Positions 1 to 64,000 of a stretch of 64,000 nt of DNA are shown in pieces; positions within the stretch are counted from its first letter, which is position 1; each line of letters starts with the position of its first letter. Source of the DNA: Gemmatimonadota bacterium (GTDB lineage Bacteria; Gemmatimonadota; Gemmatimonadetes; Palauibacterales; Palauibacteraceae); NCBI GenBank assembly GCA_965116475.1, contig OZ220691.1, positions 3,200,001-3,264,000 on the forward strand, in the 5' to 3' direction. Made by a program: the position numbers.

Positions 1-3000
1 TGCAGTCCGAGGAGTACCAGACCCAGGTCGTGGTCGAGCAGGCGAACCAGCAGCGCGCGGAGGCCGAGGGGATCCGGGATGCGCAGGACATCATCGCGGA
101 GAGCCTCGCCGGCATCTCGGGCCAGCGCTACCTGTACTGGCGCTACCTGGAGATGCTCGGCCGGATTGGCGAGGGGAGCAACAACATGGTCATCGCGCCG
201 ACCGAGGGAGGCATCCCCCTCTTCTTCGCCCCGGACCGCTAGCCGCGCGCAGCCGGGTTCTCGCTGCGGGCTGCCGAAGTCGGGCAACCGACGGCGCTCC
301 CCGGAGTGTCCGACCCTTCAGGAAACGAAGGCCGGAACGAAGGCCGTGGTTCACCACTTGGGGGGAACGGTCCCGAGGGAGGATACATGAAGAACTGGAA
401 GAATTCGCTCGCCGTCGGGCTTGCGGTGGCGCTGGTTGCGGGGTTCTACGCGGGGCTGGCGCCGGCCGCGGCCCAGGAGGAGGGTGAGGACGAGCGCCGC
501 GAACGGATTCGGGTCGCCTTTTCCGGGGGTGGCGGATACCTCGGCGTGCAGATCCTCGATGTCGACGGGGAGCGCGCCTCGGAGCTCGGGATGTCCCGCC
601 CGTACGGCGTCTACATCGACGGCGTCGTCGATGGCGAACCGGCGGCGGAAGCGGGCATCGAGGAGGGGGACGTGGTCGTGGCCTGGAACGGCGCGCGCGT
701 CGAGAGCGTCGCGCAGTTGCGGCGCCTGGCCCAGGAGACGCCCGCGGGCCGGGTCGTGGATCTGACCGTGTTCCGGGCCGGAGCGGAGCGCGAAGTCTCC
801 GTGGAACTCGCGGCACGGGTGGAACTCCCTGACCGCATGGGCGTCTTCTCGGGCGCCCGCGGCTTGACGTTCGTCTCTCCGCAGATCGACCTGTCGCGCC
901 GCGTGGCCGAAGCTTCGCGAGAAGGGGTGCGCGCCGCGCAACTCGCGGAGCGGGCCCGCGAACTGGAGGTCCGTGTCCGGGAGGCGGAGCAAGGCATGGC
1001 CGAGGGGCTGAGTCGCGTCTTCTACCTGTCGGGTGGGTTGCGGCTCGGCGCGAGCACGCAGAGCCTGGGCGACCAGCTTGCGGAGTACTTCGGCGTGGAA
1101 GGCGGCGTGCTCGTCACGTCCGTCCACGAGGACACGCCGGCGGCGGGGGGCGGCCTGCGGGCCGGCGACGTGATCGTCGGACTCGGCGACGAGGACATCG
1201 ACGACCCCGGCGACCTGCGCCGGGCGCTAGCGGATCTCGAGGCGGGGGAGGTGTCGCTCCGCATCTTCCGCGACGGCGTGGCGCGGACGCTCACCGTCGA
1301 GTTGGAGGACCCGGAGCGTCCATTCAGGTGGCGCCGGGGCGTGGACGGCCACCACCACTAGCGCCGTCACCGCCGGACTGGTCGAACAGGCCCAGTTGGG
1401 GGCCGGCCCGCGGCGGCCGGAAGTGGTCCGCCGAGAGGTCGTAGTCGCGCGGCTCGATTCCGTGCTTCGCACGCGCGAGTGAGAAGAGCCGCGCGACCTG
1501 TTCGGCGAACGGGCCGCGCCCGCGCATGCGCTCCCCGTAGTTCGACGCATAGAGGCTCCCGCCTCTCAACTCCCGCATGCGGTTCAGTACCTTCCGCGCC
1601 CGGTCCGGGCAGTGGCGCCGCAGCCAGTCCTCGAACAGGGCGGCGACGCCGTACGGAAGGCGCAGCATGATGTAGATCGCCCGCCCCGCCCCCGCCTTCG
1701 CCGCCGCTTCGAGGATGTCCGGGATCTCATGGTCCGTGAGGCCGGGAATCACCGGCGCGACGTTCACGCCCACCGGGATCCCCGCCTCCGCCAGCCGCGC
1801 GATCGCGTCGAGCCGCCGCTCCGGGGTCGAGGCCCGCGGCTCCAGCTTGCGCTGCAGCGAGCGGTCCAGCGTCGTGATGGAGAGTTGGACCTGCACCGCG
1901 TCGTAACGCGCGAGTTCGCGCAGGAGGTCGATGTCCCTCGTCACCCGGTGGTGCTTGGTCACGATCCCGACCGGGTTCCGGGCTTCGGCCAGCACCTCGA
2001 GGCAGCGGCGGGTGATCCCGAGGCGGCGCTCCACCGGCTGATAGGGGTCCGTGACGCCGCTGAGCACGAGCACCTGCGGCTTCCACCGGGGCGAGGCCAG
2101 TTCGCGGCGGAGCAGCGCCGGGGCCTCCGGTTTCGCCAGAATCCGGCTCTCGAAGTCGAGTCCTGCGGAGAGCCCGAAGTACTCGTGGGTGGGTCGCGCG
2201 TAGCAGTACGAACACCCGGTCTCGCAGCCGCGGTACGGGTTCAGGCTGGCGTCGAACCCGAGGTCCGGGCTGTTGTTGTAGGAGATGATCGAGCGGGAGC
2301 GGTCCTCCAGAATCTCCGTCTGCGGGTCCGGATCGGACGCGAGCGTCCAGGCCTCCCGCTCGACTGCGAGAGGGAGAAAGCGGTTCGCCGGGTTGTGCGC
2401 GCTTCCGCGTCCCCGGACCGACCGTCGTGGCGCCAAACCTCCGCGCATCGTCTCCCGTCTGCCGTATTTCGGTATTTATTCGGTATTCGATCGTAGAATA
2501 ATGGCCTGCGGACGGTCGAACGGTCAAGTCAGAAGCTGATGCCCAGCCGGAGGGTCAGGGCGTCGTGCCGCGGTTCTCCCTCGCCCCGCAGGATCTGCGA
2601 TCCGATGGCGACGTCGGACTCCATCAGCGACCCGACCCCGAACCCGTAGCGCACCTCGGGCCAGAGCCGGAAGCCGAGGTCGAGTTCGAGCCCAACCCCG
2701 AACTCCGCGCGAACCGGGCGTGCCGCGAGGAGGTCGTCCACGCCGGAAAACGTGCTGGACGGGAAGGTCAGGACGGGCCCGCCGAACACGTAGGGCTGAA
2801 CGGCCGGCAGGGGGAGCCGGATGCGGAAGTCGAGCGGGATTTCCACCATGTCGATGTCGAACCGGACCTGTTCATCACCGGCCATCGCGACGAGTTCCGG
2901 GATGCGGTGGTAGATGAGGGCCGGCCGGATGGAGAAGGTCGCGAGATTGACGTTCAGGAACACCCCGACGTGGTACCCGTCGGTGATATCGGTGAGATCG

Positions 3001-63000: not shown

Positions 63001-64000
63001 CGATCCCGGGAGCCGACGATGCGCAAGATGCCTGAGAAGAGCCTTCACAAGATCCGAATGACGAAGTTCGCGCTGGTCCTGGTCGCGGCCTCGAGCGTCC
63101 TCACGGCCGGTGGCGTGGCGGCGCAGGGCCGGTTCGAGCCGATGGACGTGTTCGAGATCGAATACGCCGCGGACCCGCGGATTTCGCCCGATGGCGGTCA
63201 GGTCGTCTACGTTCGCACGTCGATGGACATCATGCGCGACGCGAAGAAATCCGAGCTGTGGATCATGAACGCGGACGGGTCGGATCACCGGCGGATCGGG
63301 ACGGGCGGCTCGCCGCGCTGGTCGCCCGACGGAACGCGCATCGCGTACACGGACGACGGCCAGGTCCACGTGCGCTGGATGGACACGGGCGAGGAGGCCA
63401 CGCTCACGCAGCTCATCGAATCGCCGCGCGGACTCCGCTGGTCACCGGACGGGCGCTACCTCGCGTTCAACAAGCTCGTCCCCTACCCGCCGCCGAGCCT
63501 TGCCCCGCCGCCCAAGCCGCCCGCCGGGGCGGAGTGGGCCGATCCTCCCATCATGGAAGACCGCTTCAAGAACCGGCAGGACGGCGTTGGATACCTGGAT
63601 TTCGGCTTCGATCACCTCTTCATCGTCCCGGTCGAGGGCGGGACGCCCACGCAGGTCACGTCGGGCGACTTCCAGCACCAGGGCCCGGCCGCGTGGACAC
63701 CGGACGGCGCGAGCCTCGTCTTCTCGTCGAACCGGAACGAGGACTGGATCCACGATTACCGCAATTCCGAGCTGTACATCGTCTCCGTCGCCACCGGTGA
63801 AGTCCGGCCCCTCACCGACCGCCCCGGACCCGATCGGAGTCCGGCCGTCTCTCCCGACGGGCGGCAGATCGCCTTCGTGGGCTACGAGGACCGCACGCGC
63901 ACCTACCAGGTGAGCCGGCTCCAGGTGATGAACGTGGACGGGAGCGGGCAGCGCGTCCTCACGGGCGGTCTCGACCGCAGCGTCTCCAACCCGGTGTGGG

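What a model noticed while it worked through the whole genome (the two positions that open the first line are those of the whole stretch)
1..64000. A 16-20-nt perfect palindrome is the dominant repeat of the genome (74 copies), parked behind genes and matched to the H [...]
CGTTCCCGCGGGAACG (consensus GACGTTCCCGCGGGAACGTC) occurs 74 times, where about 0.01 copies are expected. 47 copies are intergenic, mostly within 40 nt of a stop codon and often between convergent genes. 14 lie in ORF calls, 10 of them reading (D)VPAGT(S). Across 145 genomes of the order the palindrome occurs in every genome that has the DUF222-HNH gene. In the genomes where individual sites were read, the dispersed type is the type carried by that genome's HNH gene. 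This makes a REP/RAYT-like pair built on an HNH protein.
Evidence so far: Counts: calls 20, 22, 36, 133. Expectation of 0.006-0.03: call 167. Window control: 2 found against a mean of 0.02 in shuffles. Places: 13 in HNH repeats, 47 intergenic (20 convergent, 18 tandem, 9 divergent) and 14 in ORF calls; 34 of 38 within 40 nt of the upstream stop. Flank consensus: call 161. Relatives: 74 of 145 genomes are HNH-bearing and all have at least 1 match. All 47 genomes with 0 matches lack the gene. Family f2 has 0 of 31 with the gene and 0-2 matches. The reversed control gave 0-2. G055 has 52 copies, the listed ones almost all of its HNH gene's type; G043, G095 and G065 have copies mostly in HNH genes. 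Empty sites in close relatives at 2766809, 2764218, 530231 and 2794261 The finding spans contig positions 14975 to 3271226; this window holds only 3200001 to 3264000 of it. [...]
(Added by a program. Inside this text positions count along the whole contig: contig position 3,200,001 is position 1 of the stretch shown here. "Call 12" and the like, gene names such as g00115 and contig names such as C1 are that model's own, and its searches are not shown. The text may have been shortened before it was handed on; [...] marks where a part breaks off. The agent that wrote the report below was given it as the finding of a first reader that could run no searches.)

Follow-up and report, generated by a model that had tools for sequence, protein, structure and literature searches.

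The report
Nuclease binding-site palindrome scattered genome-wide
A 16-20-base DNA palindrome that sits inside and beside a family of nuclease genes has multiplied to 74 perfect copies in this sponge-associated bacterium (none in this window), most likely as the nuclease's own docking site, and its copies mark places where genes have been flipped, inserted or swapped.

Summary
The count is real genome-wide (74 exact copies, about 0.01-0.06 expected), but this window holds none; the nearest copy lies 7.2 kb beyond its end. The genome is a Candidatus Palauibacter (Gemmatimonadota). The link to the DUF222-HNH gene holds. Each 1.6-kb HNH unit carries the palindrome upstream and inside the gene (spelling VPAGT). 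In other genomes the same codons carry other perfect palindromes through compensatory changes (at least 9 types), and the type scattered in a genome is the type in its HNH genes. New here: the protein's N-terminal domain folds like the ParB/Noc/KorB DNA-binding domain, and the palindromes resemble parS. Copies also mark rearrangement junctions: one precise inversion, two insertions at an existing palindrome that leave it on both sides, and one segment replacement. There is no RAYT, so REP/RAYT is an analogy, not membership. Binding, cleavage and the mode of spread are inferred. Three relatives keep 22-37 copies with no HNH gene detected. The scan has noted the gene-with-its-own-site idea on other genomes; my literature searches found nothing in print.

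The parts
1..64000 (.). Whole window: it contains no copy of the palindrome and no HNH unit. All parts of the finding lie elsewhere on the contig. In contig coordinates: 74 copies between 14975 and 3271211. HNH units at about 547703-549299, 1322057-1323629, 1344689-1346286, 1533276-1534799, 2295036-2296636, 2634594-2636275 and 2730819-2732422. A solo left end at 592296-592398 and an internal fragment at 2021414-2021551.
   Evidence: 0 exact, 0 with up to 2 mismatches, 3 at 3 mismatches against 2.15 expected; for the contig coordinates.

Best explanation
The palindrome is a parS-like binding site for the ParB-type helix-turn-helix domain at the N-terminus of this genome's DUF222-HNH nucleases. 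Gene and site together form a selfish protein-and-site pair.

Each unit of about 1.6 kb carries the site roughly 1 kb upstream of a second copy written into the coding sequence, and sometimes a third copy just past the stop codon. In this genus the site has multiplied to dozens of solitary copies, mostly just behind genes.

The copies are places where DNA is broken and rejoined, so segments lying between two copies get inverted, inserted, deleted or replaced, and perfect palindromes are left at the junctions.

SHOWN: the counts, the placement, the unit anatomy, the compensatory evolution of the in-gene site, type matching across genomes, the ParB-like fold (moderate scores), and the rearrangement junctions.

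INFERRED: that the protein binds the site as a symmetric dimer; that the HNH domain cuts or nicks there; and that this activity, rather than another enzyme or plain recombination, causes the rearrangements and the spread.
For: (1) UNIT ANATOMY. There are 7 HNH units. Homology between them starts 20-50 nt before an upstream palindrome. A second palindrome lies in the gene, reading H-VPAGT-SRRLACDA. The 76%-identical copy has a third one after its stop.

(2) COMPENSATORY EVOLUTION. At the same codons, relatives carry CGTTTCCGCGGAAACG, CGTTTCAGCTGAAACG or CGTCTCCGCGGAGACG, all reading VSAET and all perfect palindromes. I located the motif in 65 of 80 metagenome loci at 34-54% identity; 28 of those 65 have a perfect palindrome of 12-20 nt there, in at least 9 types. 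Several types change the peptide itself (CSAEH, VTAVT, SSAEE, FSAEN). Only 1.6% of control 30-nt windows in the same loci hold such a palindrome. Among 121 homologs the motif is VPAGT in 56, VSAET in 52 and the half-way VPAET in 6; S is never paired with G. A second lineage made the switch independently.

(3) TYPE MATCHING. Genus genomes with P-type genes have 7-74 P copies. The four with S-type genes have 0 P copies and 10-23 S copies. Four genomes without the gene have 0 copies of all four types, and so do all 16 f2 genomes. Within a unit the upstream copy matches the in-gene type: all listed P loci have a P copy at -919 to -1089, and the S1 gene has an S1 copy at -981.

(4) ParB-LIKE DOMAIN. 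The N-terminal 140 residues fold with pLDDT 90.7. Only 5 of 48,161 chains reach Z>=5, and the top 4 are ParB DBD-parS 6s6h_B (Z 8.4), Spo0J 1vz0_A (Z 7.2, rmsd 2.3, 89 aligned), and KorB 8qa8_A and 1r71_A (Z 6.5, 5.9). With the full model these score Z 10.4 and 9.5. Foldseek's credible top hits are Noc and ParB (probability 0.99-1.00, TMq 0.50-0.57). Pfam HTH_ParB gives a sub-threshold hit that spans profile positions 6-99 of 102. Consensus parS is TGTTTCAC-GTGAAACA (PMC7383237 methods), so type S2 matches it at 6 of 8 half-site positions.

(5) THE MOTIF PEPTIDE lies in a stretch with pLDDT 25-32, which fits a constraint on the DNA rather than on the fold.

(6) JUNCTIONS. A precise inversion of the 0.85-kb segment between 2793389 and 2794259 relative to all 5 close relatives, with outer flanks kept and inner flanks swapped. 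[pal]-488 nt-[pal] in G000 against a single [pal] in G002, and a different 1.4-kb segment in G003. [pal]-47 nt-[pal] (+63 nt, in frame) in G000, G002 and G003 against a single [pal] in G006, G007 and G012. The 2.6 kb between 2764216 and 2766807 is not matched between its conserved flanks in G008, G010, G011, G013 and G014; in G008, G010 and G014, where the spacing can be read, other DNA of different length lies there. A palindrome-free 20 kb of the window is collinear in the same relatives.

(7) MISMATCH SPECTRUM: 74 exact copies, 12 with 1 mismatch, 10 with 2. Orthologous copies stay perfect while their flanks diverge.
Against: No residue of the DNA-binding domain co-varies with palindrome type in both VPAGT lineages; only residues 230, 246, 248 and 262 do.

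Fold scores are moderate for a helical domain (Z 8.4-10.4; Foldseek E 0.13-0.7). The sequence hit to HTH_ParB is below threshold (E 0.18).

G008, G011 (a complete genome) and G023 keep 22-37 copies with no HNH gene found by family or protein search. G007 and G134 keep only relics.

The HNH unit at 2.73 Mb replaced other DNA at a site that has no palindrome in four relatives.

The coding copy at 3271211 has no indel against 13 orthologs, so it arose or is kept by substitution or conversion, which cut-and-rejoin does not explain.

Isolated half-sites are not enriched (observed/expected 1.1-1.7; control 95th percentile 2.37).

Two metagenome loci (L174, L180) carry different parS-like types near the gene.

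The rearranged regions were picked because they contain palindromes, so palindromes might simply accumulate in plastic DNA.
Confidence: 0.55

Rival explanations
1. The palindromes are moved or recombined by another, unidentified enzyme, for example a tyrosine or serine recombinase. Such an enzyme could use 7-bp arms around the 6-bp CCGCGG centre. An unknown transposase is another possibility. The HNH units would then merely carry or attract the site.
For: Rearrangements of all kinds (inversion, insertion, deletion) at a symmetric site are what a recombinase with a symmetric core would give. Copies persist where no HNH gene is found. No DNA-binding-domain residue tracks the type.
Against: The in-gene palindrome is conserved with compensatory changes across a diverse HNH subfamily from many environments. 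Type matching between gene and scattered copies. No RAYT. No candidate enzyme was identified; I did not screen recombinases.
Confidence: 0.15
2. The scattered copies are host-useful elements kept by selection at each place. They could be RNA hairpins that end or stabilise transcripts behind genes. They could instead be binding sites of a domesticated ParB-like protein that organises or marks the chromosome, as Noc does with its scattered sites (the Noc comparison is recalled).
For: 36 of 54 intergenic copies lie within 40 nt of a gene's 3' end. The RNA hairpin energy is -12.2 kcal/mol for the 20-mer and -18.8 for the 24-mer. Orthologous copies stay perfect while flanks diverge. There are few decayed copies. 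Copies persist without the HNH gene. Distribution is uneven, with 1 copy in 3.0-3.62 Mb.
Against: Only 3 of 74 copies have a run of 4 or more T within 14 nt, against 2.6% of random intergenic positions. 5 of 35 genus genomes have no copy of any type. The type follows the HNH gene. The depletion is one-sided around the terminus, not symmetric. 20 copies lie in ORF calls.
Confidence: 0.15
3. The palindrome arises in place by a biased mutation or repair process linked to cytosine methylation, as proposed for the short HIP1 palindromes of cyanobacteria (recalled), and not by movement.
For: The coding copy at 3271211 arose without an indel and uses the codons GTT and GGA, which I expect to be rare at 69% GC. 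The genome has three intact C5-methyltransferase genes and one split one.
Against: CCGCGG is not unusual (6,015 copies, observed/expected 0.86). A 16-24-nt word is far too long to arise repeatedly by point changes. There are clear insertion cases (+63 nt, +488 nt). The type follows the HNH gene. No methylase gene lies next to an HNH unit.
Confidence: 0.05

Closest known systems
ParB-parS, Noc-NBS and KorB-OB (ParB-family DNA-binding proteins and their 13-16-bp palindromic sites)
   Same: The fold of the N-terminal domain matches. The site is a 16-bp palindrome with GTT(T/C)C...G(A/G)AAC half-sites, and type S2 matches consensus parS at 6 of 8 half-site positions. Noc also has many scattered chromosomal sites (recalled).
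   Different: No CTPase (ParB N-terminal) domain was seen: the protein starts at the DNA-binding domain and Pfam gives no ParBc hit. It is fused to an HNH nuclease. The site is written into the protein's own coding sequence. Sites are scattered behind genes, not clustered near the origin, where the genome's own canonical parS pair sits at 1.769 Mb. The gene is multi-copy and patchy among species.
REP elements and their RAYT transposases (REPtrons)
   Same: A short palindrome at high copy number, mostly extragenic and behind genes, often between convergent genes. The cognate enzyme gene is flanked by the repeat. Repeat type is matched to the gene. There are a few composite doublets. The REP/RAYT properties themselves are recalled.
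   Different: No Y1/HUH transposase is present. The enzyme here is a ParB-like-HNH protein. The palindrome is perfect and also lies inside the gene's coding sequence. Copies lie in frame in other genes.
REP13E12 / 13E12 repeat family (DUF222-HNH) of Mycobacterium tuberculosis
   Same: The same Pfam architecture, DUF222 + HNH, and a multi-copy unit of about 1.6 kb. REP13E12 loci are among the most frequently gene-converted loci and 'lack defined biological function' (PMC13061034, passages only).
   Different: The host phylum is Gemmatimonadota. Here a defined palindrome is carried in and around the gene and scattered genome-wide. The two actinobacterial plasmid homologs I looked at showed no palindrome: the Arthrobacter one (L108) reads IHPNTIRKIACDA, and the motif was not located in the Rhodococcus one (L107). 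I did not examine M. tuberculosis DNA.
Integron attC sites and gene cassettes
   Same: A palindromic site directly behind a gene. Segments bounded by the site are inserted, lost or replaced between relatives.
   Different: There is no integron platform and no single array; integrase was not searched for. The site is a short perfect palindrome rather than a 57-141-nt imperfect one (recalled). Inversion also occurs.

Membership tests
REP/RAYT (REPtron) | A RAYT gene (Y1 HUH transposase, PF01797) in the genome, flanked by its REPs | tested here: not met
   0 candidates and 0 matches in G000 (96% complete, 1 contig); the control search hit 6 of 14 reference genomes.
REP/RAYT (REPtron) | A short palindromic repeat, mostly extragenic, at tens to hundreds of copies | tested here: met
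   74 copies, 54 intergenic by my gene calls.
ParB-parS / Noc-NBS / KorB-OB | A ParB-type helix-turn-helix DNA-binding domain | tested here: met
   Met at fold level with moderate scores; top 4 of 48,161 chains are ParB/Spo0J/KorB DNA-binding domains (Z 8.4, 7.2, 6.5, 5.9). Z 10.4 and 9.5. Noc and ParB at probability 0.99-1.00, E 0.13-0.4. At sequence level the hit is only sub-threshold (PF17762, E 0.18).
ParB-parS / Noc-NBS / KorB-OB | A 13-16-bp palindromic site of the parS kind | tested here: met
   CGTT(T/C)C..GC..G(A/G)AACG against parS TGTTTCAC-GTGAAACA and NBS TATTTCCC-GGGAAATA (PMC7383237 methods).
ParB-parS / Noc-NBS / KorB-OB | An N-terminal ParB/Srx CTPase domain | tested here: not met
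   no ParBc hit at E<=10; model residues 1-139 align to ParB residues 125-264, so the protein begins at the DNA-binding domain. The longer database form has only 24 more residues (447 against 423).
ParB-parS / Noc-NBS / KorB-OB | The protein binds the site | not testable with these tools
REP13E12 / DUF222-HNH | DUF222 (PF02720) followed by HNH (PF01844) in one protein, in a multi-copy unit | tested here: met
   DUF222 7.4e-26 and HNH 2.7e-08; 7 units at 76-96% identity.
Intrinsic (rho-independent) terminators | A G+C-rich hairpin followed by a T/U tract | tested here: not met
   the hairpin is present (-12.2 kcal/mol for the 20-mer), but only 3 of 74 copies have 4 or more T within 14 nt, against 2.6% of random intergenic positions.
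Integron gene cassettes | An IntI integrase with attI and an array of ORF-attC cassettes | not tested
   I did not search for integrase. The copies are scattered, with local clusters at 530-536 kb, 2760-2769 kb and 2790-2794 kb.

The most novel reading that the evidence does not exclude
The ParB-like-HNH protein and its scattered palindromes form a previously undescribed site-specific DNA shuffling system. The nuclease docks on any copy and cuts symmetrically. Because all copies are identical and self-complementary, any two cut sites can be rejoined without a scar. Genes lying between two copies therefore behave as cassettes that can be flipped, excised, inserted at another copy or exchanged. 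The result would resemble an integron, but built on a nuclease and a parS-like site rather than on an integrase and attC. It would also give a function to the large DUF222/REP13E12 family.
Probability: 0.2. Interest if true: 0.9.

Novelty: new variant of a known kind. Interest (0 to 1): 0.72.

Why it matters
DUF222-HNH proteins are a very large family: 7,481 of the 8,000 scored candidates passed E<=1e-5 in one search. The family includes the REP13E12 repeats of M. tuberculosis, which a 2026 preprint still describes as lacking a defined function.

This genome gives the family a concrete, testable model: a ParB-type reader fused to a nuclease, with its site written into its own gene.

It also offers a natural experiment. 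The site has multiplied and sits exactly at inversion, insertion and replacement junctions.

If the nuclease drives these events, this would be a new route to gene-cassette mobility and a new kind of repeat-enzyme pair beside REP/RAYT.

The compensatory changes also show a protein motif (VSAET/VPAGT) that is conserved because of a DNA constraint, which matters for how conserved motifs in this family are read.

Tried and rejected
(a) WITHIN-POPULATION INVERSION. I laid the contigs of 4 public runs on 2792700-2795000. No joints were reported. The 'letters between' rows and the loose ends at the palindromes are other palindrome loci and doublets cross-mapping. Contigs cannot show rare variants, so this says nothing either way.

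(b) complex prediction for a homodimer was not available, so I did not test dimerisation.

(c) ISOLATED HALF-SITES as footprints of centre cuts: not enriched. An earlier version of that script was killed for time or memory.

(d) SOLO COPIES AS LONG REMNANTS OF HNH UNITS: rejected. Flanks match the unit's flanks at 11.4 of 24 positions against 9.2 for random positions, mostly the adjacent GA/TC. Only 592296-592398 and 2021414-2021551 are true fragments.

(e) HNH UNIT LANDING IN A PRE-EXISTING PALINDROME: rejected for the 2.73-Mb unit.

(f) Noc-LIKE ABSENCE AROUND THE TERMINUS: the depletion is one-sided (1 copy in 3.0-3.62 Mb but 18 in 0-0.6 Mb).

(g) RESTRICTION-MODIFICATION ON CCGCGG: no avoidance.

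(h) Rfam: no family in the HNH locus.

(i) PDB by sequence profile: only the HNH part hits (IscB 3.6e-5, group II maturase, McrA).

(j) THE PLASMID COLLECTION gave only 2 distant homologs. The Arthrobacter one has no palindrome at the motif, and I could not locate the motif in the Rhodococcus one.

(k) LITERATURE. Searches for DUF222+HNH, REP13E12, the palindrome cores, and ParB+HNH+parS+13E12 found no description of the palindrome or of a ParB-like reading of DUF222. PMC12704722 (passages only) notes ParB-CTPase-HNH fusions without a function, and it was not among the five papers that mention DUF222 together with HNH.

(l) One search failed on a mistyped reference; I corrected it by fetching loci.
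Full report
WHAT IS IN THE WINDOW. The finding spans a whole contig, and this window (contig 3200001-3264000) holds none of it. It has 0 exact copies of CGTTCCCGCGGGAACG and 0 with up to 2 mismatches. It has 3 matches at 3 mismatches against 2.15 expected. The window lies in a terminus-proximal arm (3.0-3.62 Mb) where 46-100% of gene calls per 100-kb bin, 67% or more in five of the seven bins, lie on the + strand, and that arm holds only 1 of the 74 copies. Twenty kilobases of the window are essentially collinear with five close relatives.

THE OBSERVATION, GENOME-WIDE. The genome (3,620,669 bp, 69.4% G+C, one contig) has 74 exact copies, where Markov models of order 0-7 expect 0.006-0.064. 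Words from this palindrome are the most repeated 16-mers of the genome. Flanks extend it to GACGTTCCCGCGGGAACGTC. The perfect palindrome is 16 nt long in 28 copies, 18 in 21, 20 in 11, 22 in 13 and 24 in 1. Diverged copies are few: 12 with one mismatch and 10 with two.

With my own gene caller (2,944 calls, 91% coding), 54 copies are intergenic (21 convergent, 21 tandem, 12 divergent) and 20 lie in ORF calls. Seven of the 20 are in HNH genes. Of the other 13, 9 read VPAGT, 3 read RSRGNV and 1 reads TFPRER. Of the 54 intergenic copies, 36 lie within 40 nt of a gene's 3' end, against 21% of random intergenic positions.

THE ORGANISM. Records of close relatives are named Candidatus Palauibacter, Gemmatimonadota. 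Public runs holding this DNA are mostly labelled sponge metagenomes. I saw only the search listing for the paper describing the order (PMC10469786).

THE HNH UNITS. Seven DUF222-HNH genes lie in repeat units of about 1.6 kb at 76-96% identity. There is also a 104-nt solo left end (592296-592398) and a 138-nt internal fragment (2021414-2021551). Homology between units starts 20-50 nt before an upstream palindrome that lies about 250 nt before the start codon. A second palindrome lies in the gene and reads H-VPAGT-SRRLACDA. The most diverged unit has a third just after its stop. Two units have a degenerate or truncated upstream copy.

THE KEY RESULT: THE DNA, NOT THE PEPTIDE, IS WHAT IS CONSERVED. 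At the same codons, HNH genes of relatives carry CGTTTCCGCGGAAACG, CGTTTCAGCTGAAACG or CGTCTCCGCGGAGACG. All three read VSAET, all three are perfect palindromes, and they differ by paired synonymous changes.

I located the motif in 65 of 80 metagenome loci encoding homologs at 34-54% identity. In 28 of those 65 the DNA there is a perfect palindrome of 12-20 nt, in at least nine types. In several types the peptide itself has changed so that the DNA stays symmetric: TGTTCCGCGGAACA (CSAEH), ACGTTACCGCGGTAACGT (VTAVT), ATTCTTCCGCGGAAGAAT (SSAEE) and TTTTCCGCGGAAAA (FSAEN). Only 1.6% of all 30-nt windows in those loci contain a palindrome of 12 nt or more. More distant members (motif PALALDTARRLACDA) lack it, and so does the Arthrobacter plasmid homolog; I could not locate the motif in the Rhodococcus plasmid homolog.

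Among 121 close homologs the motif is VPAGT in 56, VSAET in 52 and the half-way VPAET in 6, and S is never combined with G. A second lineage (P0058, P0060, P0120, with VPAET sisters at 90% identity) made the same switch independently. In the structure model the motif lies in a stretch with pLDDT 25-32.

TYPE MATCHING. I compared 24 other species of the genus.
- 16 species carry 7-67 copies of the P type, and 8 carry none.
- Four species with DUF222 genes but no P copies (G001, G004, G005, G018) have S-type genes. They carry 10-23 copies of S types, including tandem arrays.
- Four species without the gene have no copy of any of the four types, and neither do the 16 genomes of the sister family.
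- G010 has both P-type and S1-type genes, with 59 P and 5 S1 copies.
- Within a unit the upstream copy has the type of the in-gene copy: all listed P loci have a P copy at -919 to -1089, and the S1 gene has an S1 copy at -981. S3 genes carry a second S3 copy 65-150 nt upstream. Six metagenome loci repeat their own type nearby. L174 and L180 are exceptions.

Across the 145 genomes of the order, all 69 DUF222-bearing genomes have at least 1 match to a degenerate pattern, and all 47 genomes with no match lack the gene. High copy numbers outside the genus occur in G079 (52), G080 (30), G105 (25) and G107 (26).

EXCEPTIONS. Six genus genomes have 18-42 matches and no DUF222 hit. I searched five of them with the protein. 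G134 and G007 keep C-terminal relics. G008, G011 (complete) and G023 show nothing. So the copies outlive the gene.

WHAT READS THE PALINDROME. I took this lead from earlier notes of this scan on other genomes and then tested it here.
- The N-terminal 140 residues fold with pLDDT 90.7 and pTM 0.80.
- Against 48,161 representative chains only 5 reach Z>=5, and the top four are ParB DNA-binding domain bound to parS (6s6h_B: Z 8.4, rmsd 5.3, 108 aligned), Spo0J (1vz0_A: Z 7.2, rmsd 2.3, 89 aligned) and KorB (8qa8_A Z 6.5; 1r71_A Z 5.9). P1 ParB, SopB and VirB follow lower down.
- The full-length model gave Z 10.4 and 9.5 for the first two.
- Foldseek lists Noc and ParB chains at probability 0.99-1.00 and TMq 0.50-0.57, but with E-values of 0.13-0.4.
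- Pfam gives only a sub-threshold HTH_ParB hit (E 0.18, profile positions 6-99 of 102).
- No CTPase domain is present.
- The HNH part resembles the HNH domains of IscB, McrA, TagI and Cas9.
- Consensus parS is TGTTTCAC-GTGAAACA and NBS is TATTTCCC-GGGAAATA, each bound by two domains in two-fold symmetry (PMC7383237, passages). The S2 type, CGTTTCAG-CTGAAACG, matches parS at 6 of 8 half-site positions.
- The genome's own canonical parS pair is at 1769086 and 1769155, opposite the terminus inferred from skew.

Against a simple co-evolving reader: no residue of the N-terminal domain tracks the palindrome type in both VPAGT lineages.

THE COPIES MARK REARRANGEMENT JUNCTIONS.
(i) The 0.85-kb one-gene segment between 2793389 and 2794259 is inverted relative to its flanks in all five close relatives. 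Reading the junctions shows that the outer flanks are kept and the inner flanks are swapped and reverse-complemented, so the breakpoints lie within the two palindromes.
(ii) G002 has one palindrome whose left flank matches the left flank of the 531321 copy and whose right flank matches the right flank of the 531825 copy. G000 has [pal]-488 nt (one small gene)-[pal] there, and G003 has a different 1.4-kb segment between two palindromes.
(iii) In the linker of a 3,960-nt gene, G006, G007 and G012 have one palindrome. G000, G002 and G003 have [pal]-47 nt-[pal], which is 63 nt more and in frame. The 47-nt insert carries an inner palindrome, CCAGTnGCnCAACTGG. All four genuine copies of it in the genome sit exactly 26 nt after the start of a palindrome (or of a one-mismatch copy) and are bracketed by two of them.
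(iv) The 2.6 kb between 2764216 and 2766807 is not matched in G008, G010, G011, G013 and G014, whose flanks on one or both sides do match; in G008, G010 and G014, where the spacing between the flank matches can be read, other DNA of different length lies there. Both palindromes are followed by the same 13 nt.

Homology blocks with relatives end within about 5 nt of palindromes at 531825 and 535530. These regions were chosen because they hold palindromes, so the control shows a contrast, not a cause.

WHAT DOES NOT FIT A SIMPLE CUT-AND-REJOIN PICTURE.
- The HNH unit at 2.73 Mb replaced about 490 nt of other DNA at a site that has no palindrome in four relatives.
- The coding copy nearest the window (3271211, VDVPAGT in an amidohydrolase-like gene) has no indel against 13 orthologs. 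It is exact in 5 genomes, has 1-3 mismatches in 8, and is unrelated in G015. It uses the codons GTT and GGA, which I expect to be rare at 69% G+C. So it arose or is kept by substitution or short-patch conversion.
- Isolated half-sites are not enriched.
- Empty sites at 2764216 and 2766807 exist, but the insert at the latter is about 55 nt, not a bare 16-20 nt.

RIVALS.
- No RAYT is present.
- The copies are not canonical terminators: 3 of 74 have a T-tract, at the background rate.
- CCGCGG is not avoided (observed/expected 0.86). Three intact C5-methylase genes and one split one exist but lie away from the HNH units.
- I cannot exclude an unidentified recombinase acting on 7-bp arms around CCGCGG.

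LITERATURE. Searches found no description of this palindrome or of a ParB-like reading of DUF222.
- REP13E12/HNH/DUF222 appears only as a class of repeats in PMC10589994 (passages).
- REP13E12 loci are reported among the most frequently gene-converted loci, with no defined function, in PMC13061034 (passages).
- PMC12704722 (passages) lists ParB-CTPase-HNH fusions as novel and unexplained.
- I opened no supplements.

VERDICT. The pairing with the HNH gene is well supported. The best reading is a parS-like site read by the nuclease's own ParB-type domain, with the copies acting as hot spots of breakage and rejoining. Binding, cutting and the mode of spread remain inference. It works like a repeat-enzyme pair, but it is not a member of REP/RAYT and not a canonical ParB system.

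Noticed in passing
window 20173-20176: G003, G006, G007 and G012 each have about 1.75-1.8 kb of extra DNA between two blocks that abut here in G000. G000 has no palindrome at this point. I did not read what the extra DNA is.
   Followed up: no
window 34054-34130: This is a homology-block boundary in all five relatives. G012 has about 2 kb of extra DNA here.
   Followed up: no
contig 1769086-1769170 (outside the window): Two canonical parS-type sites 69 nt apart (TGTTTCACGTGAAACA and CGTTTCACGTGAAACG). They lie roughly opposite the terminus that GC skew and gene-strand bias place near coordinate 0/3.62 Mb.
   Followed up: partly
contig 1344756-1344830 and the same place in the other HNH units (outside the window): Right after the upstream palindrome the HNH leader carries 3-4 direct repeats of G(C/T)TGA(G/A)AC. 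The gene's 3' end carries a tandem duplication, GATGGCAGCGTGACC GATGGCAGCGTGA, that overlaps the stop codon. These may be further protein-binding or slippage sites.
   Followed up: no
G001 contigs C204 (1127-1265), C196 (9028-9057) and C120 (364-407): Tandem arrays of S-type palindromes with 41-nt and 14-nt periods. One array mixes S3 and S2 units head to tail.
   Followed up: no
L033 (G002:C68), about 47390-47950: G002 has an extra 570-nt segment, encoding a small HTH-type protein, directly before the palindrome orthologous to contig 2764216.
   Followed up: no
contig 1102127-1103190 (outside the window): A C5-methyltransferase gene split into two pieces, beside three intact ones at 127201, 1835204 and 2914500.
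   Followed up: no
coded runs X1 and X23, laid on L023: Contigs from other sponge metagenome runs contain [palindrome]-33 to 35 nt with the inner CCAGT...ACTGG motif-[palindrome] doublets. So the composite unit occurs beyond this genome (table 5c).
   Followed up: partly
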